Below, piece after piece: positions 18,345 to 24,315 of a stretch of DNA of 28,923 nucleotides. A model generated the notes under the pieces. It was given only the letters and a program-made list of their open reading frames with translations. It had not been told where the DNA came from and searched no databases. The stretch is from the NCBI GenBank assembly GCA_043803945.1, contig JAZDJN010000047.1:1-28923 (forward strand). Reading direction: 5' to 3'. Source of the stretch: a bacterium. GTDB taxonomy: Bacteria; Bacteroidota; Ignavibacteria; UBA10030. The translations under genes were made by a program, and so were the position numbers. Position 1 is the stretch's first letter; each line of letters begins with the position of its first letter.

Positions 18345-19349
18345 TCAACGATAGGCCGCTTCTTTTACCAACCATTTTCTCCAATTCAATTGCCACTCCG
18401 ATAAAGTATTTTTGTTAATCACAGAGATTGGGGTGTAGAGTAATGGCTGGGGAGGAGATTGATTTCTCAGAACTTTGTCGGCAATAATTTTCACTGATTC
18501 ATAACCTAACTTAAAGCAATTCACACTTACCAATACCTGAATATGACCGCTCTCAACATATATCAATGCGTTTGGGACAGCTTGTAAACACACTGCTTTA
18601 ACTTCACCTGGTGACCAAGGCAAACTTTTTTTCAAAGTCACAGCCCAGCTTCCAAATAGGGCCCATCCTTTGATGCTGCGATTTGCTGTATACGCACGGG
18701 ACAAGACTTCGATAGCTTTTTGTGGAGTCTCTTCATTGTGAAATTCATTTTTCGGAAGAAGCAAGATTCCAGGGTAACGCGCAAGTTCATCTTTTAATCC
18801 ATGGAGCCGCTGCTGTTGATTGAAGGCTTTTGGATTGCCAGCCAGCACGGCAATTGTTCCTTTTCCACCCAGCTGAGTGGCGAGTTCTTTCATCATTGCT
18901 TTTCCAAATTCAATGTCGTTGGCTCCGTAATAAGCAAAGCGTTTGCTGGTCGGTGCATCCGAATCGAAGCATAAGACCGGAATGCCTTGAGCCACGGCTT
19001 TATCGATGTATGGAGTGAGATACTCAGCATCGGTACAGGCAATCGCAATGGCATCCACTCTTGCACGAATAAATTTTTCTATTGTCGCAGCTTGTTCTTT
19101 GACGTTTTCTGAATTTTGCGGTGATTGCCAATCGATAATAATTTCAGTCTGATATTGTGGACCGAGCTCTTTGGCAGCGACGTGCGCTCCAGTGTTCGCT
19201 GCCTGAAATACCGGGCTCGTGCCAATCTTGGCAATCATCCCAATGGTGATTTTCTTTTTTGCTGAATTGTTTTGTCCAATGACGACACTGTTCAATACCA
19301 AAGAAAAAATAATAATGAGCAGGAAGATGAAGAGAACTTTTCGTTTCAT
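18345..19349 (-). CDS. Periplasmic sugar-binding protein (RbsB/LsrB-like, Peripla_BP_4)
   Basis: Signal peptide; VDAIAIA, IDKAVAQGIPVLCFDSDAP, QQRLHG. 334 aa. Confidence 0.85.
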   Translation of the reverse strand: MKRKVLFIFLLIIIFSLVLNSVVIGQNNSAKKKITIGMIAKIGTSPVFQAANTGAHVAAKELGPQYQTEIIIDWQSPQNSENVKEQAATIEKFIRARVDAIAIACTDAEYLTPYIDKAVAQGIPVLCFDSDAPTSKRFAYYGANDIEFGKAMMKELATQLGGKGTIAVLAGNPKAFNQQQRLHGLKDELARYPGILLLPKNEFHNEETPQKAIEVLSRAYTANRSIKGWALFGSWAVTLKKSLPWSPGEVKAVCLQAVPNALIYVESGHIQVLVSVNCFKLGYESVKIIADKVLRNQSPPQPLLYTPISVINKNTLSEWQLNWRKWLVKEAAYR

Positions 19350-19523
19350 AGTACAATCCTAATTTAAATGAATGGATAATCAGATTATTCTGGTTCTCTA
19401 AGAACGATCTGTCATTAATGGTGTTCATTGATTAATCGACGTGGTGGGATGTTTTCTTTTCCTGTTTTCAACGAACACCTTATGTCGATCTAAAAATATC
19501 TGCCTCAGCCAATTATTGACTCA

Positions 19524-19552
19524 ATGATAAGACAGTAATGATGTTTTGTCAA
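19524..19552 (-). promoter_or_regulatory. Near-consensus sigma70 promoter upstream of the sugar-binding protein gene
   Basis: Minus strand TTGACA (19552-19547)-N17-TATCAT (19529-19524), about 175 bp upstream of the ATG. Confidence 0.6.
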
Positions 19553-19849
19553 GCATTGGAAAGAAAGAAGAGTAAATAAGGAAAAGATTATTATGAACAG
19601 TTTGGGATGAAAATCTCTTTTTGACTGCCTGCCGGCAAGTGTGCCAATTCTACAACAAGGTAAAATTCTAGGCGATAAAATCGAAGCTGTCATATAATGA
19701 GTTAGCAGAAGTGTTAACAGTTCGAAAAAGTAGAGAATTGGTCCTCAAATCTGCTCCAATCACCTCGACAACCAATTCCCAATCACGCTGCACCAAATCC
19801 TAAATAAATACATTCTTCAATACTTTTGTTTTACACATCCCCCCCATTT

Positions 19850-19920
19850 AAAAACAGCAAAGGGCTGCCTCACGTATGAGACAGCCCCTCTCGGGTGCCC
19901 GGAACCCCGTGGGAAAAGGT
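19850..19920 (-). repeat. att-like repeat copy 1: tRNA 3'-end remnant plus intrinsic terminator
   Basis: 19850-19904 matches 26548-26602 at 51/55. The minus strand reads TTCCGGGCAC then hairpin AGGGGCTGTCTCA-TACG-TGAGGCAGCCCT and a T-rich tail. Confidence 0.75.
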
Positions 19921-20005
19921 TTGCTCAAATCAGATTTATCGAAAACGTACATCCCATTCATCCTAAGTTTTTTTTAAAGTCTTTTTTCGGACACTTTTAG
20001 TTCTC

Positions 20006-20034
20006 CGCGATATTTAATCTCTATTTTTGTCTAA
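20006..20034 (+). promoter_or_regulatory. Putative ECF sigma-dependent promoter, copy 1
   Basis: CGCGATATTT-N11-TTGTCTAA, repeated with identical spacing at 20661-20689. GTCTAA resembles ECF -10 elements. Confidence 0.7.
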
Positions 20035-20086
20035 TCAATAAGTGCTATTATATATGCACACATTGAAATGCCAAAATTTTATTGAA

Positions 20087-20659
20087 ATGGCGAAAATAAC
20101 GGACGCAAAATTACTTCAAAATTCAGCGCTTTCAGATTTTAAGGAGCTCTTCGAGACATATCACGATCTGATCTTCAGCGTATGCTATCGAATGACGGGT
20201 AACCGGACAGTGGCAGAAGATCTTACGCAGGATGTGTTTTTTAATGCCTACAAAGCTCATCATGAATTCCGCAATGACTCACAAATCTCAACCTGGCTGT
20301 ATCGCATTGCTGTGAATGTTTCGCTCAACTACGAAACGAGGAAGAAGCGGGTAAAGTGGTTCTCCCTTGACGTTTTTCTCAATCCTGAAGCAGATGAGGC
20401 ATTTCAAGACCTTTTTTGCACCAACGACACACCTCAGGCACAACTAGAGCAGGCAGAGCGGGAACAGCGCATTTTGAAGGCAATCAACTCGCTTCCTCCA
20501 AAGCAACGTATCGCACTTCTCTCCAATAAGTACGAAGGTTTATCATATGAAGCGATAGCTCTCTCAATGAATTGCTCGGTCAATGCTGTTCGATCGTACA
20601 TTTTCCGTGCCAAACAAACATTATCCAGAAAACTCAATTTATCGAAAGAACGAATATGA
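20087..20659 (+). CDS. ECF RNA polymerase sigma-70 factor
   Basis: AEDLTQDVF, STWLYRIAVN, LPPKQR, GLSYEAIA, VRSYIFRAK. Start uncertain (20042, 20054 or 20087). Confidence 0.93.
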   Translation: MAKITDAKLLQNSALSDFKELFETYHDLIFSVCYRMTGNRTVAEDLTQDVFFNAYKAHHEFRNDSQISTWLYRIAVNVSLNYETRKKRVKWFSLDVFLNPEADEAFQDLFCTNDTPQAQLEQAEREQRILKAINSLPPKQRIALLSNKYEGLSYEAIALSMNCSVNAVRSYIFRAKQTLSRKLNLSKERI

Positions 20660-20660
20660 A

Positions 20661-20689
20661 CGCGATATTTTGCAAAAACGATTGTCTAA
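20661..20689 (+). promoter_or_regulatory. Putative ECF sigma-dependent promoter, copy 2 (upstream of the anti-sigma gene)
   Basis: CGCGATATTT-N11-TTGTCTAA directly after the sigma stop codon. Confidence 0.7.
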
Positions 20690-20707
20690 CTAACAGAGAG
20701 GCTCAAG

Positions 20708-21169
20708 ATGAATCATAGCGAAGCTAAGGCAAATTTATTCCTTTATATCGACGGCGACTTTCCAAAAGAGACCTCCATTCGTATGGATACTCATCTCCGT
20801 GACTGCGCAGAATGCAGGCAGACGCTCAATCTGGCCCGCCCGCTCTGGGCGACCGAAATTCCTCTATCCTCAAGCTCACACGTATACTTTGGATGGACAC
20901 GATTGGAAAATCGGATCGTGAATTACAATCGCCATACTCTACGCGAGACCGTTCGTCCATCGCTCTTGGTCGGACTGAGGATTGCTACTGTGTCAGTACT
21001 TCTTTGCGGTGCAATAATGCTTGGGAAACATCTAGGTGATTTTACCGGCACGGAACAGGCAGATGGTACCAAGGTGATCTCTCAGCTTCACCTCGATAAA
21101 TTTCAATTACCCGAATCCGATCCATTTATCAATACTGTGGTCAGATTCAATGAAGAGTTTGGAAAGTGA
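20708..21169 (+). CDS. Zinc-binding (ZAS, zf-HC2) transmembrane anti-sigma factor
   Basis: LYIDGD...HLRDCAEC (HxxxCxxC) and a single TM helix LLVGLRIATVSVLLCGAIML, directly downstream of the ECF sigma. Confidence 0.88.
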   Translation: MNHSEAKANLFLYIDGDFPKETSIRMDTHLRDCAECRQTLNLARPLWATEIPLSSSSHVYFGWTRLENRIVNYNRHTLRETVRPSLLVGLRIATVSVLLCGAIMLGKHLGDFTGTEQADGTKVISQLHLDKFQLPESDPFINTVVRFNEEFGK

Positions 21170-21177
21170 GGCAGGTG

Positions 21178-21711
21178 ATGCAGAGAAAATTGTTCTTAGG
21201 AATGATGGGCTTTCTCACAATCGTGAATATCAGCGCGCTAGGCACAATGATCTATAACAAGGTTATTTTTGCCCGGGAATCCACCCCCGCTAGAATGTCA
21301 ATGCACAAACCTGACTCGTTGAACAATTGTATTGAAGCAGAATGCCCGATGGCGACAGAACTAGGTTTGACAGAACAACAGATGAAACAAATGCGCGAAC
21401 AGCAAACCCTGATTAACAGAAATATATTAGGATTGTCGCGTGAGGTGGCTGAGAAACGAATCGCTCTCATTCAGGAATTAATAAAGTCAAAGCCTGATAT
21501 CACCAGGATGAACCAAACACTCAAAATCGTAGACTCTTTACAAAGCTCCATTCAACATATAACAATACAGAATTTGCTTGAGGTTAAAAAAGTCCTCAAT
21601 CAAGAACAACAAGAAATTCTCTTTTATCAAATCCTGAGAGAATGTAAAACCGGAATGAGTCGAACATTCCAATATCAAGATACAACAACCACACATCATG
21701 AAAGGAATTAA
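21178..21711 (+). CDS. Periplasmic heavy-metal sensor family protein (Spy/CpxP/ZraP/CnrX-like)
   Basis: N-terminal anchor ending NISALGT; two LTxxQ-type motifs (ELGLTEQQ, VLNQEQQ) flanking a helical hairpin; Met/Cys/His-rich linker. Alternative GTG start at 21166. Confidence 0.82.
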   Translation: MQRKLFLGMMGFLTIVNISALGTMIYNKVIFARESTPARMSMHKPDSLNNCIEAECPMATELGLTEQQMKQMREQQTLINRNILGLSREVAEKRIALIQELIKSKPDITRMNQTLKIVDSLQSSIQHITIQNLLEVKKVLNQEQQEILFYQILRECKTGMSRTFQYQDTTTTHHERN

Positions 21712-21714
21712 ATT

Positions 21715-22050
21715 ATGGCTCGCGCAAAAACTCTCATCGTGATTCTTCTCCTGATCTTTCTGATCGGTTCAGCAGGATTGGTTTCCGTTCTCGGTCAAAC
21801 GCAGGACAAACCAAAAACCCAAACCACTGAAATGAAAAAGGGTCAGTGCACAGATTGCAAAGACTGCAAAGGCACGTGTACCGATTGCAAAGGAAATTGT
21901 AAAGACAGCAAAGGGAAGTGTACAGATTGTAAAAACTGTAAAGATAATTGCAAGGAGTGCAAAGGGAATGGAAAAGAGTGCAAGGGTAATTGCACAAACG
22001 GCCATGAGAAGAAGGCCGGTCCATCGATGAAGCAACAGAAAAAGAAGTAA
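21715..22050 (+). CDS. Small exported Cys/Lys-rich repeat protein (metallothionein-like, 13 Cys)
   Basis: AAGGA RBS; starts 3 bp after the previous stop; signal peptide/anchor then KGQCTDCKDCKGTCTDCKGNCKDSKGKCTDCKNCKDNCKECKGNGKECKGNC; followed by a hairpin. Confidence 0.8.
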   Translation: MARAKTLIVILLLIFLIGSAGLVSVLGQTQDKPKTQTTEMKKGQCTDCKDCKGTCTDCKGNCKDSKGKCTDCKNCKDNCKECKGNGKECKGNCTNGHEKKAGPSMKQQKKK

Positions 22051-22060
22051 GCTCGAAAAT

Positions 22061-22121
22061 ACCTCCCAACCTTCCAAGAATGTCAGGAATTTCCATTTCT
22101 TGGAAGGCGAGGTGGTGTTTT
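22061..22121 (+). terminator. Hairpin closing the ECF operon (possible terminator or REP)
   Basis: CCTTCCAAGAA (22070-22080) pairs with TTCTTGGAAGG (22097-22107); outer ACCTC/GAGGT; followed by GTTTT. Confidence 0.5.
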
Positions 22122-22123
22122 GT

Positions 22124-22470
22124 TCAGAACGTGAACACACTGTCAGCGTCGATGGTCCTGTGAAAAGTTCTGCTGTATTGCCTATCTCTATTCATCCCAC
22201 GAGCGGAATATTACGGATTCCTCTCGCATCAGTTCTTATGCCACAAACATTAACTTTACCACCTTGGCTTAGAATGGATTTCAACATCCGTTCGATATTG
22301 AAGTACCCTTGCGGAACATTCTCTGTACGAAGGGCGTCACTGACAGCGTCTGCCATCAGGAAGAAGTTCACTTGCACGGCGGGGTGATCTATCTGTAACG
22401 CCATTGCCAATCACAGCCTGTTATATATCACCTCGATTCCATATGGAGCATTGTCGATGAGAATAGACAT
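22124..22470 (-). pseudogene. DsrE/YchN-family protein pseudogene
   Basis: Reads MSILIDNAPYGIEVIYNRL*LAMAL...FFLMADAV...PQGYFNIERML...VCGIRTDARG...LVG*IEIG..., then a frameshift to IDADSVFTF*. Two in-frame TGA codons and one frameshift. Confidence 0.8.
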
Positions 22471-22680
22471 GTCCCTGTGGAATCCTTTGAATGTTTAGGA
22501 TGCTTCAAAAATTCACCCAATGTATTTTGGATGAACTTGAAAGTTGTAACATTGGAATGACTCCGAAGACAAGAAGCAGTACAGTCCCAGGTCAACGAAA
22601 ATCCAGGTTGAAACAGAAGGAAGAAACGGATATAATGATTAAAAATAAGTTATCAATTTTCATCAGCGTGCAATCTGTCT

Positions 22681-24315
22681 ATGGGACATAAGAGAACAAA
22701 TCGCATCGTAGCAGCGGCAGTTTTTGCCATCACACTTCTTACATATCTTTTTACTTTACCACCCACGGTAGTCTTCTGGGATGTTCCTGAGCATTGTGCC
22801 GCATCGTACCTTCTCCAGGTACAACATCCGCCTGGTTCTCCGTTGCTTGTGATTATCATGCGAGTTGCTTCGATGATACCGATATTCTCCGATATCGCCG
22901 TCAGAATGAATTTCATCAATGCGTTGGCAAGCTCAATCGTGGTCACGCTGCTGTATCTCATCACAGTCCGGATTATCCTCCTGCGCCAGTTTGTCTTTTC
23001 AACGGATGGTCTCAAATTCGTTGTTGTTGCATCGTTAATATTTTTCAGTGTCTACCCCGGTATTGTGAAATGGTTTCCATCAATGCTTGATGGGGAAGTG
23101 TGGGGTAAAAAATCAGATCTATGGATTGTTCTCGCGATTGCCTTGCCCCTCGCCGCCATCTCTGTGCTGTTCTACTCAGTGAAAAAGAAAAACAGGATTC
23201 TCAATATTGCAGCACTCTCGGTATTGTTCATCCTCCTTGGATATTCCATCTATGCGGTTGTCTTCATCCGTGCAAATGTGAATCCGCCGATGAATGAAAA
23301 TGATCCAAGCACTCTTCAAAGACTGGTATTATATTTGGAACGTGAACAATACGGCGAGACACCACTCCTGGAGCGCCGATGGTCGAACGAACCGGAAAAG
23401 GCGCAGTACTTCAAGAATTATACAAGCGATTTCGACTATCTCTGGAGCTACCAGATCAACCATATGTACCTCCGCTATTTCGGATGGAATTTCATCGGTA
23501 AGGAAGACGATTGGCAAGGGGCCGGCGTTCGCTTCGGCCAGCTATACGGTATACCGTTTCTCCTCGGCTTGATCGGTTTTTTCTATCATTGGAAGATTGA
23601 TCAGAAAATGGCCTTCATCATGACGATATATTTTATCCTCACCGGACTTGCCTTGGCGGTGTATTTTAATATGCAGCAGGAACAACCGCGTGAGCGAGAC
23701 TACTTTTTCGTCTACTCATTTTTCGGTTTTTGCCTTTGGATAGGTCTTGGGACACTCGCCATTGTCAACTACCTGGAACAAAAACTGAAAGAGAGAACAG
23801 CGCGCATCGCTGGGTACGCAGCGATGGCGGCCGCGTTCGTTTTTGTTCCGGTGAATATGTTCCGAACGACGGTTCATCCCTCGAGCCGTTCTGGGCATTT
23901 CGTCACTTGGGACTATGCGTACAACTTGCTTCAAAGCACTGAAAAAGATGCAATCCTGATCACCCACGGAGACAATGATACCTTTCCGCTCTGGTATCTC
24001 CAGGATGTTGAAGGTGTTTGTAGAGACGTCCGCGTCATTTGCCTGAGTCTGGCGAATACCGATTGGTACATAAAGCAGTTGAAGCACAATGAGCCTTACG
24101 GAGCGAAAAAGGTCCCTATTAGCATGACGGACGAACAGATCACTGGAATTCTTCCTGTTCAATATGAGCCGCAAATGGTTTCATTGCCTGTAACGCGGAA
24201 CGCGGCGGAAGGATGGGATAGTTCAAATACAGACCCACGTGGATTGGAGGTCGTTGACACATTGAAATATCATCAAAAACAGGGATGCGCAATTCTCTCA
24301 TGGCATTTATCCTGA
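22681..24315 (+). CDS. DUF2723 (TMEM260-like, GT-C-type) membrane protein; appears internally deleted and C-terminally truncated, possible pseudogene
   Basis: PTVVFWD..E, HPPG, NPPMNENDP, YLEREQYG, MYLRYFGWNFIG, PRERDYF, GDNDTFPLWYLQ. The AVEAEVY...GVH segment I expect after the second helix is missing. Confidence 0.75.
   Translation: MGHKRTNRIVAAAVFAITLLTYLFTLPPTVVFWDVPEHCAASYLLQVQHPPGSPLLVIIMRVASMIPIFSDIAVRMNFINALASSIVVTLLYLITVRIILLRQFVFSTDGLKFVVVASLIFFSVYPGIVKWFPSMLDGEVWGKKSDLWIVLAIALPLAAISVLFYSVKKKNRILNIAALSVLFILLGYSIYAVVFIRANVNPPMNENDPSTLQRLVLYLEREQYGETPLLERRWSNEPEKAQYFKNYTSDFDYLWSYQINHMYLRYFGWNFIGKEDDWQGAGVRFGQLYGIPFLLGLIGFFYHWKIDQKMAFIMTIYFILTGLALAVYFNMQQEQPRERDYFFVYSFFGFCLWIGLGTLAIVNYLEQKLKERTARIAGYAAMAAAFVFVPVNMFRTTVHPSSRSGHFVTWDYAYNLLQSTEKDAILITHGDNDTFPLWYLQDVEGVCRDVRVICLSLANTDWYIKQLKHNEPYGAKKVPISMTDEQITGILPVQYEPQMVSLPVTRNAAEGWDSSNTDPRGLEVVDTLKYHQKQGCAILSWHLS

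What the first reader, a model, noticed from the sequence alone, without database searches (positions are those of the whole stretch)
21715..22050. Signal-peptide-bearing 13-Cys repeat protein: candidate extracytoplasmic metallothionein
Seen: 111 aa with a hydrophobic N-terminus, then about 50 residues holding 13 Cys in a K-G-x-C-(T/K)-(D/E)-C heptad, Lys-rich, no aromatics in the mature part and no CxxCH. The repeats show at DNA level (tgcacagattgcaaa, tgtaccgattgcaaa, tgtacagattgtaaa). Two repeat positions have Cys replaced (Ser, Gly). Established: characterised bacterial metallothioneins (SmtA/BmtA, MymT) lack signal peptides. Inference: an exported or membrane-tethered metal-thiolate sponge or redox buffer that expands by tandem duplication.
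Basis: partly seen in the sequence, partly recalled or inferred. Interest (0 to 1): 0.75.

Follow-up and report, generated by a model that had tools for sequence, protein, structure and literature searches.

The report
Exported cysteine-repeat protein in metal-stress operon
A real, conserved gene for a small exported protein that is very rich in cysteine and lysine ends a self-regulated envelope metal-stress operon of an Ignavibacteria-like bacterium, and it most likely soaks up thiol-loving metals outside the cytoplasm, though nobody has yet measured this.

Summary
ORF 21715-22050 (+) encodes 111 aa: a signal peptide, then an 84-aa mature part with 13 Cys, 22 Lys and no aromatic residue, built on 21/42-nt DNA repeats. 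It is under purifying selection (dN/dS 0.06-0.21).

It is the last gene of a conserved four-gene cassette:
- an ECF sigma factor;
- a zf-HC2 anti-sigma factor;
- a membrane-anchored LTxxQ protein with a ZraP/CpxP/CnrX-like predicted fold;
- the Cys-rich protein.

A promoter-like motif occurs exactly twice in the 5.5-Mb genome, both times inside this operon.

The family is tiny: about 8 sequences, and no match in 400 other genomes of the phylum. A second, unrelated Cys/Met/His-repeat family holds the same operon slot in another Ignavibacteriales genome. Sister genera carry Met-rich ZraP-like proteins there, and some Bacteroidota fuse Cys repeats to an LTXXQ domain.

I found no DsbA, DsbB or VKOR in the genome, and its exported proteins show no even-Cys bias, so a disulfide-knotted fold is unlikely. 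I also found no MNIO enzyme, so it is not a bufferin.

Best reading (about 0.5): an unmodified periplasmic metallothionein-like buffer, induced by its own metal-stress sigma circuit. Metal binding is inferred, not shown.

The parts
20008..20034 (+). P1: promoter-like motif CGAYWYTT-N12-TGTCTAA upstream of the sigma gene. Assigning it as -35/-10 is my inference.
   Evidence: Conserved upstream of the sigma gene in 4 of 4 loci. It is one of only 2 exact matches in the 5.54-Mb genome.
20087..20659 (+). ECF sigma factor. The listed ORF starts at GTG 20042, but ATG 20087 (MAK...) matches the orthologues' starts and leaves room for P1.
   Evidence: Pfam Sigma70_r2 at 62.1 bits and Sigma70_r4_2 at 63.4 bits. 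NCBIfam sigma70-ECF at 102.5 bits against a cut-off of 42.9. Start judged from alignment A4.
20663..20689 (+). P2: second copy of the same motif, in the sigma/anti-sigma spacer.
   Evidence: The spacer has 87% mean column identity in 4 of 4 loci. Exact match. A 2-mismatch copy lies in the equivalent spacer of the distant operon L046.
20708..21169 (+). Membrane-spanning anti-sigma factor with an N-terminal zf-HC2 motif (HxxxCxxC).
   Evidence: Pfam zf-HC2 at 28.7 bits against a cut-off of 22.2. One hydrophobic segment at about residues 86-106.
21166..21711 (+). N-terminally membrane-anchored periplasmic LTxxQ protein, ZraP/CpxP/CnrX/Spy-like. It has invariant C55-x4-C60-P-M and C160. The likely start is M5 (21178).
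   Evidence: Pfam Metal_resist at 22.9 bits, below the cut-off of 29.2; the orthologue in L005 scores 29.0 and the one in L046 scores 39.8. Alignment A3. AF2 helices 70-165 at pLDDT 75-91. Foldseek top hits are ZraP 3lay, CpxP 3qzc, CnrX 3epv and Spy 3o39 at E 0.016-0.3. Atlas neighbours are Metal_resist/LTXXQ clusters.
21715..22050 (+). The finding: the gene for the 111-aa Cys/Lys-rich exported repeat protein. It starts 3 nt after the stop of the upstream gene.
21715..21795 (+). Signal peptide, residues 1-27. Predicted SPase I cleavage at VLG|Q28.
   Evidence: Basic n-region, hydrophobic core, and small residues at -3/-1 in 8 of 8 homologues, with invariant Q at +1. In this genome Q is the commonest residue after a -3/-1-like site: 197 of 1119, or 17.6%, against a 3.6% background. 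No SignalP run was possible. There is no twin-arginine and no lipobox.
21847..21993 (+). Cys-repeat core, C45-C93: 13 Cys in 49 residues. It covers the 21/42-nt tandem repeats.
22056..22121 (+). Strong hairpin just after the stop codon, with a U-rich 3' side. A candidate terminator that closes the operon.
   Evidence: MFE -29.4 kcal/mol, z = -3.54, and 0 of 200 shuffles fold as well. The simple terminator scan did not list it.

Best explanation
The gene encodes a Sec-exported, signal-peptidase-I-cleaved, strongly basic 84-residue protein. I infer that its 10-13 cysteines stay reduced in the periplasm and bind thiophilic metal or metalloid ions as thiolates. That would make it an unmodified, metallothionein-like periplasmic buffer.

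It is the terminal gene, and apparently the only effector gene, of a self-contained ECF281-type circuit. In the proposed sequence of events:
1. A membrane-anchored CnrX/ZraP-like LTxxQ protein, which carries its own conserved Cys-x4-Cys-Pro-Met site, senses the metal.
2. The zf-HC2 anti-sigma factor releases the ECF sigma factor.
3. The sigma factor reads two matching promoters, one before its own gene and one before the anti-sigma gene.
4. The Cys-rich protein accumulates and sequesters the metal, which removes the signal (negative feedback).

The lysines next to the cysteines would offset the negative charge of thiolate clusters. Capacity changes by gain and loss of 7-residue repeats.

Shown here: gene reality, export signal features, operon conservation, motif uniqueness, the analogues in the same slot, and the absence of Dsb-type and MNIO enzymes. 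Inferred: metal binding, which metal, the sensing step, and the feedback.
For: 1. Real gene under selection. dN/dS is 0.06-0.21 in the 8 of 10 pairs that could be measured.

2. Conserved cassette. Sigma, zf-HC2 anti-sigma, TM-LTxxQ and the Cys-rich gene occur together in the window and in every metagenome variant with enough flank: L005, L006 and L008 (= L009 = L010), with L007 partial. Their outer flanks differ.

3. Known architecture. ECF, zinc-finger anti-sigma at +1 and a heavy-metal-resistance protein at +2 is the layout described for group ECF281 and linked there to heavy-metal stress (PMC7826278, passages).

4. The +2 protein. Its fold search is topped by ZraP, CpxP, CnrX and Spy.

5. 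Promoter motif. CGAYWYTT-N12-TGTCTAA has exactly 2 perfect matches in 5.54 Mb, both in this operon. With up to 1 mismatch there are 3 matches against 5 for the reversed control, and the third lies inside a PIN-domain gene.

6. Same slot in other genomes.
- G679, same order but another family, has a 148-aa signal-peptide protein with 14 Cys, 32 Lys, 5 Met, 3 His and no aromatic residue. Its family has 10 clusters with 2-4 repeats.
- In 6 of the 11 loci from sister genera that I examined, the slot holds a secreted Met/Gly/His-rich Metal_resist protein (36-49 bits in the three I scanned) with a C-terminal Cys pair or triplet in 5 of the 6.
- The juxtamembrane linker of the TM-LTxxQ protein is Cys-bearing where the partner is Cys-rich and Met-rich where the partner is Met-rich.

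7. Fusions. Signal peptide plus CKDC-type Cys repeats plus LTXXQ occurs in P0028 (LTXXQ 29.9 bits against a cut-off of 24.3; 47 member sequences). A weaker case is the Sangeribacter protein (LTXXQ 19.9 bits; NCBIfam Spy E 6e-6).

8. Evidence against structural disulfides.
- No DsbB, VKOR, DSBA or Thioredoxin_4 match in the 100%-complete genome, while 2 DsbD_TM genes are present.
- Among 661 exported-like ORFs, Cys makes up 0.56% against 1.13% in cytoplasmic-like ORFs, and even Cys counts are 47.3% against 46.7%.
- Mature Cys counts are odd in 4 of 8 family members, and in 7 of 10 members of the second family.
- Only 4 of 17 Cys columns are invariant, and single Cys are replaced by Ser or Gly in 5 columns.

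9. No self-supporting fold predicted. AF2 gives pLDDT 48.2 with only the signal helix, and the ESM Atlas model has pLDDT 0.49. This fits a metal-dependent fold but is not evidence for one.

10. Weak hint of expression. One 185-nt contig, 100% identical and covering 21853-22036, was found in one groundwater metatranscriptome run. DNA carry-over is not excluded.
Against: - No measurement of metal binding exists, and no tool here could model it.
- The Cys share of the mature protein (15.5%) is about half that of classical metallothioneins (figure recalled, not checked).
- The best-conserved parts are not the repeats. They are the mature N-terminus (QTQDK.K..T.E.KK) and the C-terminal C-x-G-x-C-x-x-G-H-x-KK-A-x-P. 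That points to a specific interaction or a single defined site rather than a simple sponge.
- No metal transporter lies in the operon or next to it in the window. Only one of the variant loci has thiol/arsenic-type neighbours: ArsP_1, two thioredoxins and CcdA in L005.
- The zf-HC2 anti-sigma factor could equally report thiol or oxidative stress.
- Pfam Metal_resist is below its cut-off for the window's own +2 protein (22.9 against 29.2), and no Foldseek hit reaches E 0.001.
- The regulon estimate rests on a motif I derived from 8 sites. Degenerate sites would be missed.
Confidence: 0.5

Rival explanations
1. Periplasmic thiol buffer or sacrificial scavenger. The reduced cysteines would react with oxidants, oxygen, electrophiles or polysulfide in the envelope of an anaerobe. 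The sigma circuit would then be a redox-stress response, not a metal-stress response.
For: - The anti-sigma factor carries the HxxxCxxC zinc-finger motif. Its weak best NCBIfam hit is the redox-sensing RsrA (E 9.6e-5, far below cut-off).
- The genome has two DsbD-type reductant importers and no oxidative Dsb pathway, so reduced thiols in the envelope are plausible.
- One variant locus lies beside two thioredoxins and CcdA.
- Tolerance of single Cys losses fits a bulk thiol pool as well.
Against: - The equivalent slot in sister genera holds Met/Gly/His-rich ZraP-like proteins, and methionine-rich tails are not thiol buffers.
- The +2 protein resembles the metal-handling ZraP and CnrX as closely as it resembles the chaperones CpxP and Spy.
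- The ECF281 context is linked to heavy-metal stress in the literature.
- A stoichiometric protein scavenger is an expensive defence, and no dedicated reductase for recycling it is encoded in the cassette.
Confidence: 0.18
2. Regulatory ligand rather than bulk buffer. The protein would be a dedicated partner of the CnrX-like sensor or of the anti-sigma factor. It would present bound metal to the sensor, or mask the sensor when metal-free, and so set the gain of the sigma switch, much as CpxP tunes CpxA.
For: - The most conserved mature segments are the non-repeat N- and C-termini, which look like docking motifs.
- Inheritance with the sensor is strict in all variants.
- Cis-fusions of Cys repeats to LTXXQ domains exist elsewhere.
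- The sensor's linker chemistry (Cys or Met) matches the partner's chemistry in three lineages.
Against: - A ligand role does not explain repeat-number variation or tolerated Cys losses.
- If the motif-defined regulon really is only this operon, a circuit whose sole output is its own modulator would have no effector.
- This reading overlaps with the best explanation rather than excluding it.
Confidence: 0.15
3. A disulfide-knotted secreted peptide with another role, such as a cationic antimicrobial or defensin-like peptide, or a structural envelope protein.
For: - It is secreted, small, Cys-rich and has a net charge of about +11.
- Pfam's only hit is the plant defensin-like family AtDEF-like, at E 0.0086 and 16.8 bits against a cut-off of 25.
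- An earlier scan note (e1-3536182) describes a different family of secreted disulfide-rich proteins that sit beside ECF sigma factors.
Against: - I found no DsbA, DsbB or VKOR, and the exported proteome shows no even-Cys bias.
- Cys counts are odd in 4 of 8 members, and single Cys are replaced.
- No immunity, transporter or processing genes are present.
- No confident fold is predicted.
- The Pfam hit covers residues 1-58, mostly the signal peptide.
Confidence: 0.05
4. An iron-sulfur or enzyme-modified (RiPP) peptide. The invariant CxxCxxCxxxC block would bind a 4Fe-4S cluster, or the cysteines would be converted to thiooxazoles as in bufferins.
For: - C45-C55 has the ferredoxin spacing, and the weak metagenome hits L011-L013 are polyferredoxins matched on that block.
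- Bufferins are Sec-exported, ECF-regulated, Cys-containing copper binders (PMC11626156).
Against: - There is no Pro after the fourth Cys and no twin-arginine signal, which export of a folded cluster protein would need.
- The first two Cys of the block are Ser in L005.
- No MNIO (PF05114) was found in the 100%-complete genome, while the control rings in Caulobacter.
- There is no DUF2282 or bufferin HMM hit.
- No radical-SAM or other maturase gene lies in the cassette.
Confidence: 0.04

Closest known systems
Bufferins (BufA1/DUF2282 and BufA2/BUF_6/12Cys), periplasmic copper-chelating RiPPs of Caulobacter vibrioides and many other bacteria (PMC11626156; abstract and passages read)
   Same: Both are small proteins with a Sec signal peptide and conserved cysteines that accumulate in the periplasm. 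Both are controlled by an ECF sigma/anti-sigma pair (SigF/NrsF for bufferins). The proposed role is the same: buffering excess metal outside the cytoplasm.
   Different: Bufferins need an MNIO (DUF692) enzyme and a DUF2063 partner to turn Cys into 5-thiooxazoles. This genome has no MNIO, the cassette has no such genes, and no bufferin or DUF2282 model matches. Here the ligands would be plain thiolates, the protein is a tandem-repeat array, and the sensor is an LTxxQ protein.
ZraP, the zinc-resistance-associated periplasmic protein of Salmonella and E. coli (PDB 3lay), within the CpxP/Spy/CnrX LTxxQ superfamily (PMC8264917, passages)
   Same: ZraP is a periplasmic, stress-induced protein that chelates Zn. 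Proteins of this fold sit next to the finding (the +2 gene). In sister genera they replace it in the same slot, and in some Bacteroidota they are fused to Cys repeats.
   Different: The finding itself has no LTxxQ domain and no helical fold. It would correspond only to the metal-binding tail, made as a separate protein. ZraP is under a two-component system, not an ECF sigma factor.
CnrYXH nickel/cobalt ECF system of Cupriavidus metallidurans, and the ECF281 group (PMC7826278, passages; CnrX structures 3epv and 2y3b)
   Same: Both have a membrane-anchored periplasmic sensor of the same fold class plus an anti-sigma factor plus an ECF sigma factor, and both auto-regulate. ECF281 is described with exactly the sigma, zinc-finger anti-sigma, heavy-metal-resistance-protein order seen here.
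   Different: Cnr drives an efflux pump (CnrCBA). Here no pump is linked, and the only extra gene is the Cys-rich protein. The anti-sigma factor is zf-HC2, not CnrY. I could not test membership of ECF281 with a group HMM.
Metallothioneins: bacterial SmtA/BmtA and MymT, and vertebrate MT
   Same: Shared features are small size, many Cys in CxxC or CxC-like spacing with adjacent Lys, no aromatic residues, and no predicted metal-free fold.
   Different: There is no sequence relationship. This protein is exported rather than cytoplasmic, has a lower Cys share (15.5%), has a heptad tandem-repeat build, and has conserved non-Cys termini.
Csp1 copper storage protein of methanotrophs (PMC7558416, passages)
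   Same: Csp1 is an exported, Cys-lined protein that stores many Cu(I) ions per chain. By coincidence it also has 13 Cys.
   Different: Csp1 is Tat-exported and is a pre-folded four-helix bundle tetramer. The finding has a Sec-type signal without twin arginines and no predicted helical bundle.

Membership tests
Bufferins (MNIO-modified RiPP metallophores) | Precursor matches DUF2282 or the BUF_6/12Cys model | tested here: not met
   Pfam at E<=0.1 gives only AtDEF-like. NCBIfam at E<=0.1 gives 0 families.
Bufferins (MNIO-modified RiPP metallophores) | MNIO (DUF692, PF05114) enzyme with a DUF2063 partner, in the gene cluster or at least in the genome | tested here: not met
   PF05114 gives 0 matches in the 100%-complete genome, while the control rings in Caulobacter. 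None lies in the cassette. DUF2063 was not searched separately.
Bufferins (MNIO-modified RiPP metallophores) | N-terminal Sec signal peptide and conserved Cys in the core | tested here: met
   This is a by-eye and heuristic reading; no SignalP was available.
Bacterial metallothionein SmtA/BmtA (Pfam Metallothio_Pro) | Sequence match to the family model | tested here: not met
   No such hit at E<=0.1. The PDB profile search found nothing at E<=1.
Bacterial metallothionein SmtA/BmtA (Pfam Metallothio_Pro) | Cytoplasmic location, with no export signal (recalled) | tested here: not met
   A signal peptide is present in 8 of 8 homologues.
Metallothionein in the operational sense (small, Cys-rich, no aromatics, metal-thiolate clusters; definition recalled) | Low mass, high Cys, CxxC/CxxxC spacing, no aromatic residues | tested here: met
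   The mature part is 84 aa with 13 Cys, spacings of 2 and 3, and 0 aromatic residues. Its Cys share of 15.5% is lower than in classical MTs.
Metallothionein in the operational sense (small, Cys-rich, no aromatics, metal-thiolate clusters; definition recalled) | Binds several metal ions in thiolate clusters | not testable with these tools
   Needs ICP-MS or native MS on purified protein.
Csp1/Csp3 copper storage proteins | Four-helix bundle lined with Cys; Tat signal for Csp1 | tested here: not met
   AF2 predicts only the signal helix and short helices at pLDDT below 50. No RR motif occurs in 8 of 8 n-regions.
4Fe-4S ferredoxin-type cluster motif | CxxCxxCxxxCP, with a route for exporting a folded cluster protein | tested here: not met
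   The spacing is present (C45-C55), but Thr or Ser follows instead of Pro, there is no Tat signal, and the first two Cys are Ser in L005.
ECF281-type operon (context of the finding) | ECF sigma, zinc-finger anti-sigma at +1, heavy-metal-resistance (PF13801) protein at +2 | tested here: met
   Gene order and Pfam hits, and the description in PMC7826278. PF13801 is below its cut-off in the window protein (22.9/29.2) and above it in the L046 orthologue (39.8).
ECF281-type operon (context of the finding) | Sigma factor scores with the ECF281 group model | not testable with these tools
   No ECF-group HMM library is held. NCBIfam gives only generic ECF hits.
CpxP/Spy/ZraP/CnrX superfamily (the +2 neighbour) | LTxxQ motifs and a helical-hairpin fold | tested here: inconclusive
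   LTEQQ and (L)NQEQQ motifs are present. The top 12 Foldseek ranks are all ZraP, CpxP, STV, CnrX or Spy, but E is 0.016-0.22 and none reaches 0.001. The PDB sequence profile search found nothing significant.

The most novel reading that the evidence does not exclude
In Ignavibacteriales, which I found to lack DsbA/DsbB/VKOR-type oxidative protein folding, a CnrX-like ECF circuit may have as its only output an unmodified, Sec-exported, repeat-expandable metallothionein. Three kinds of protein occupy this operon slot: this Cys-heptad family, a second unrelated Cys/Met/His-repeat family, and Met-rich ZraP-like proteins. They would be interchangeable 'ligand-matched' periplasmic metal buffers whose donor atoms co-vary with those of the membrane sensor. 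That would be a native periplasmic metallothionein system, a class not yet described in bacteria.
Probability: 0.4. Interest if true: 0.75.

Novelty: new variant of a known kind. Interest (0 to 1): 0.6.

Why it matters
Known ways for bacteria to buffer metals outside the cytoplasm are folded binders such as CusF, CueP and ZraP, Tat-exported Csp1, and the enzyme-modified bufferins. A plain, genetically encoded thiolate repeat protein in the periplasm would be a further and very simple solution. It may be possible only where the envelope is kept reducing.

The case is unusually testable. The whole system is four small genes with two recognisable promoters and, as far as the motif shows, no other regulon members. 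One reporter construct and one purified 84-residue peptide could therefore identify both the inducing metal and the binding stoichiometry.

Repeat-number variation among close relatives offers a natural series for relating Cys count to capacity. Short Lys/Cys heptads of this kind could also be of interest for metal capture or biosensing.

If the redox-buffer reading turns out to be right instead, it would still be a new kind of envelope stress effector for anaerobes.

Tried and rejected
1. Complex prediction, with the periplasmic part of the +2 protein (A3, residues 33-181) and the mature Cys-rich protein (A2, residues 27-111). The result was 'no answer', score 0.00 in both runs, and the controls were not run. 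It says nothing either way.

2. Structure prediction of the Cys-rich protein. AF2 with 8 sequences gave pLDDT 48.2, and the ESM Atlas model has pLDDT 0.49 with neighbours at TM 0.40 or less. No usable fold came out, so I ran no fold search on it.

3. Wider homology. The search of 5.8 billion proteins found only 4 relatives. phmmer over 1.84 billion representatives gave 4 hits at E<=0.001, of which only P0005 is a relative. P0006 is a VDVKGSC repeat protein without a signal peptide. P0007 and P0008 (3675 and 1674 aa) were not fetched and I took them as low-complexity matches.
- The family-level genome search gave 1 weak hit in 85 other genomes (G021, 21.6 bits). It lies in an alternative frame of a 607-aa gene and is spurious.
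- The phylum sample gave 0 of 400.
- The PDB gave 0.

4. Weak loci. L011-L013 are polyferredoxins and L004 is an unrelated repeat region.

5. Of the 20 hits to the Sangeribacter fusion protein, I read 17 (P0023 and P0027 were not fetched; the 20th, P0009, is the query's own record). Thirteen of the 17 are CxxCxxC-repeat proteins with no signal peptide and no LTxxQ, so they are irrelevant. P0019 has LSKQQ/LTKQQ motifs by eye but no Pfam hit.

6. Promoter motif, first version, with up to 3 mismatches: 21 matches against 20 for the reversed control, so it was uninformative.

7. Rfam on 19300-22750: no match at E<=0.1.

8. Sequencing runs. Only one run held any of the stretch (8% of sampled words). 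It is kept as contigs, so it gives no strand, no ends and no expression level.

9. Literature. The phrase 'periplasmic metallothionein' appears in 0 papers. Two further term searches listed no native Sec-exported unmodified metallothionein. I read only the listings, so the claim 'not described' rests on these three searches.

10. Earlier scan notes by place and by sequence returned nothing.
Full report
WHAT IS THERE

ORF 21715-22050 on the + strand encodes 111 residues. The N-terminus has a basic start (MARAK), about 21 hydrophobic residues, and then VLG followed by Q28.

The 84 residues from Q28 hold 13 Cys, 22 Lys, 11 Asp+Glu, 1 His and no Phe, Trp or Tyr. All Cys lie between C45 and C93, with spacings of 2,2,3,2,3,6,2,2,3,2,6,3.

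Tandem Repeats Finder reports 21-nt and 42-nt periods over 21854-21994. Cys codons are a mix of TGC and TGT, so the repeats are old and are kept at the protein level.

One detail is only partly right: the Ser in CKDSKG replaces a Cys found in 7 of 8 homologues, but the Gly in KGNGKEC does not sit in a Cys column.

IS IT A GENE?

Four close relatives turned up among 5.8 billion proteins. Six metagenome loci, giving three further distinct variants, also encode it. Eight distinct sequences align end to end (A2).

Pairwise dN/dS is 0.06-0.21 in the 8 of 10 pairs where dS was not saturated. That is as low as for the three upstream genes, at 0.11-0.38.

One groundwater metatranscriptome run holds a single 185-nt contig identical to 21853-22036. 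This is only a weak hint of expression, because the run is kept as contigs and DNA carry-over cannot be excluded.

EXPORT

All eight homologues keep a basic n-region, a hydrophobic core and small residues at -3/-1, with an invariant Gln at +1.

In a heuristic scan of the genome, Gln is the commonest residue after a -3/-1-like site in signal-like N-termini: 197 of 1119, or 17.6%, against a 3.6% background. This is the Bacteroidetes 'Q-rule', in which signal peptidase I exposes Gln that is then cyclised (PMC5837995 and PMC10653852, abstracts).

There is no twin-arginine motif and no lipobox. I could not run SignalP. Cleavage at G27|Q28 and a soluble periplasmic product are my inference.

THE OPERON

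Three genes precede it on the same strand:
- An ECF sigma factor. Its likely start is ATG 20087, judged from orthologue starts.
- A membrane-spanning zf-HC2 anti-sigma factor, 20708-21169.
- A 181-aa protein with an N-terminal membrane anchor and LTxxQ motifs, 21166/21178-21711. The Cys-rich gene starts 3 nt after its stop codon.

Pfam Metal_resist scores 22.9 bits for the window's LTxxQ protein, under the 29.2 cut-off. The L005 orthologue scores 29.0 and the more distant L046 orthologue scores 39.8.

Its AF2 model has three long helices at pLDDT 75-91. The Foldseek list is headed by ZraP (3lay, TM by target 0.73-0.82), CpxP, the Salmonella STV protein, CnrX and Spy. E-values are only 0.016-0.3.

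ESM Atlas neighbours are Metal_resist/LTXXQ clusters, named 'periplasmic heavy metal sensor' or 'Spy/CpxP family', mostly from Bacteroidota.

The protein has an invariant C55-x4-C60-P-M just before the first LTxxQ motif, and an invariant C160.

A strong hairpin follows the Cys-rich gene, at -29.4 kcal/mol and z = -3.5.

The four-gene order is kept in every variant locus with enough flank (L005, L006, L008 = L009 = L010; L007 is partial), while the outer flanks differ. The window has sugar-utilisation genes and a TMEM260-like protein. L005 has an ArsP_1 permease, two thioredoxins and CcdA. L010 has a PLD-like protein and a MacB-type ABC system. The cassette is thus a self-contained module.

The order ECF sigma, zinc-finger anti-sigma at +1, heavy-metal-resistance protein at +2 is what Casas-Pastor et al. 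describe for group ECF281 and relate to heavy-metal stress (PMC7826278, passages). I could not score the sigma factor against that group's model.

PROMOTERS AND REGULON

The DNA upstream of the sigma gene and the sigma/anti-sigma spacer are both conserved in 4 of 4 loci. They share the motif CGAYWYTT-N12-TGTCTAA.

In the 5.54-Mb genome this motif has exactly two perfect matches: 20008-20034 and 20663-20689. With one mismatch allowed there are 3 matches against 5 for the reversed control, and the extra one lies inside a PIN-domain gene on the other strand.

A 2-mismatch copy sits in the equivalent spacer of the distant operon L046.

I read these sites as two sigma-dependent promoters. As far as this motif shows, the regulon is the operon itself. 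The -35/-10 assignment and the regulon size are inferences.

WHO ELSE HAS IT?

The family is very narrow.
- phmmer over 1.84 billion representatives found one true relative.
- There was no credible match in 85 other genomes of the same family.
- There was none in 400 genomes sampled from the phylum, covering 180 genera.

The slot it occupies is not empty elsewhere.
- In genome G679 (same order, another family) the cassette sigma / zf-HC2 / TM-LTxxQ is followed by a GTG-start gene for a 148-aa protein. It has a signal-like N-terminus, 14 Cys, 32 Lys, 5 Met, 3 His and no aromatic residue, and it is built of ECKDKMAKGECKHDSK units.
- That second family has 10 clusters of 110-152 aa with differing repeat numbers. 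One source names a member as a hypothetical protein of an Ignavibacteriales bacterium, which places the order.
- BLASTP between the two families gives 26.6 bits. For such compositions this does not establish homology.
- In sister genera I examined 11 loci. In 6 of them the gene after the TM-LTxxQ gene encodes a secreted protein with Met/Gly/His-rich flanks around a Metal_resist/LTXXQ core (36-49 bits in the three I scanned) and a C-terminal Cys pair or triplet in 5 of the 6. From recall, this resembles ZraP, which chelates Zn in the periplasm (PMC8264917, passages).
- In another family the downstream genes are a chromate transporter and FmdE.

The linker of the TM-LTxxQ protein carries Cys where the partner is Cys-rich (this lineage and G679). 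It is Met-rich where the partner is Met-rich. That is three lineages, so it is suggestive only.

Proteins also exist that join a signal peptide, CKDC-type Cys repeats and an LTXXQ domain in one chain. P0028 is one (LTXXQ 29.9 bits, above cut-off; 47 member sequences). A weaker case is a Sangeribacter protein (LTXXQ 19.9 bits; NCBIfam Spy E 6e-6).

THIOLS OR DISULFIDES?

The genome is 100% complete by marker genes. It gave no match to DsbB, VKOR, DSBA or Thioredoxin_4, while it has two DsbD-type membrane reductant carriers. The control genomes rang as expected.

In a heuristic split of ORFs of 200 aa or more:
- Exported-like proteins (n = 661) have half the Cys content of cytoplasmic-like ones (n = 2053): 0.56% against 1.13%.
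- They lack Cys three times as often: 20% against 6%.
- They show no excess of even Cys counts: 47.3% against 46.7%.

From recall of Dutton et al. 2008, this is the signature of bacteria that do not build structural disulfides in the envelope.

Within the family, mature Cys counts are 13, 10, 11, 12, 10, 13, 13 and 12, so 4 of 8 are odd. In the second family 7 of 10 are odd. Only 4 of 17 Cys columns are invariant, and single Cys are replaced by Ser or Gly in 5 columns.

These facts argue against a fixed disulfide knot and fit a pool of reduced thiols.

WHAT IT IS NOT

- Not a bufferin. An earlier scan note pointed me to bufferins: Sec-exported, ECF-regulated, Cys-containing periplasmic copper chelators whose Cys are converted to thiooxazoles by an MNIO enzyme with a DUF2063 partner (PMC11626156, abstract and passages). 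They are the closest known functional analogue. But no MNIO is present in this genome, and no bufferin, DUF2282 or other family model matches.
- Not SmtA-like by sequence.
- Not Csp1-like. There is no Tat signal and no helical bundle (Csp1 features from PMC7558416).
- Probably not an iron-sulfur protein. The invariant C45-C55 block has ferredoxin spacing and drew weak hits to polyferredoxins. However, it lacks the Pro, the protein lacks a Tat signal, and L005 has Ser at the first two positions.

MECHANISM AND ODDS

I put about 0.5 on a periplasmic, unmodified, metallothionein-like buffer for thiophilic metals or metalloids, made on demand by a CnrX-like ECF circuit and feeding back on it by removing the signal.

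About 0.18 goes to a thiol redox or electrophile buffer, and about 0.15 to a mainly regulatory partner of the sensor. That last reading overlaps with the first. It is favoured by the fact that the best-conserved mature segments are the non-repeat N-terminus and the C-terminal C-x-G-x-C-x-x-G-H-x-KK-A-x-P.

The remainder goes to disulfide-rich peptides, cluster-binding or modified peptides, and unknowns. Which metal is involved is open. The only hint is arsenic/thiol-type neighbours in one variant locus.

NOVELTY

The protein family is new and unannotated. The concept of exported Cys-based metal buffering under ECF control has precedents in bufferins, Csp1 and ZraP. I therefore rate it a new variant of a known kind.

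Three literature searches (listings only) showed no native, unmodified, Sec-exported metallothionein.

Noticed in passing
G000:C7:33849-34217 (-) = L071:4350-4718 (-): The same genome has a second small exported-looking Lys/Cys-rich protein of 122 aa. It has a signal-like N-terminus ending in FA|Q and 10 Cys, mostly as CxxC pairs spaced about 10 residues apart. It is not beside an ECF cassette. Its neighbours are a glycosyltransferase/deacetylase-like gene, a multi-pass membrane protein, an HtpX-like protease and a LemA-like gene; these names are from reading the sequences, not from a family scan.
   Followed up: partly
L046:1011-1457 (-) (genome G679): A second, apparently unrelated family of exported Cys/Met/His/Lys repeat proteins (ECKDKMAKGECKHDSK units; 10 clusters, 110-152 aa) occupies the same operon position after sigma / zf-HC2 / TM-LTxxQ.
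   Followed up: yes
L003:5995-6786 (+) (Sangeribacter MAG); also P0028 and P0019: Single proteins that join a signal peptide, long CKDCKxC repeats and a Spy/LTXXQ-like C-terminal domain. P0028 also has a His-rich tail. The Sangeribacter gene sits after infC-rpmI-rplT-like genes, not after a sigma factor.
   Followed up: partly
window 22192-22410 (-): A convergent 72-aa ORF matches only positions 32-87 of the 116-position DsrE/DsrF profile (27.9 bits). It is either a truncated gene or one with a missed start.
   Followed up: no
window 19350-20007: About 650 nt without a convincing ORF lie between the sugar-binding protein gene and the operon. They include a terminator-like hairpin on the minus strand (19890-19859). 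No Rfam match.
   Followed up: partly
L005:1-2032 (+): In one variant locus the cassette is preceded on the same strand by an ArsP_1 permease fragment, a Thioredoxin_3 protein, a thioredoxin and a CcdA/DsbD_TM protein. This is a thiol/arsenic-type neighbourhood that is absent from the window.
   Followed up: partly
whole genome G000: This Ignavibacteriales-like genome shows the Bacteroidetes Q-rule: Gln follows 17.6% of the heuristic signal-peptidase sites. The published abstract says the rule does not hold for the whole FCB group.
   Followed up: partly
G000:C103:39021-39356 (L027:1462-2157) and G000:C88 (L028): The genome also has a stand-alone secreted Metal_resist protein with a long Met/Gln/Arg-rich tail. 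It has a second sigma / zf-HC2 / TM-LTxxQ cassette as well, followed by a large signal-anchored protein instead of a Cys-rich one.
   Followed up: partly
window 21734-22096 (-) and 21769-22140 (-): Two long antisense ORFs (120 and 123 aa) run across the repeat. They are side effects of the repetitive codon pattern, not genes.
   Followed up: yes
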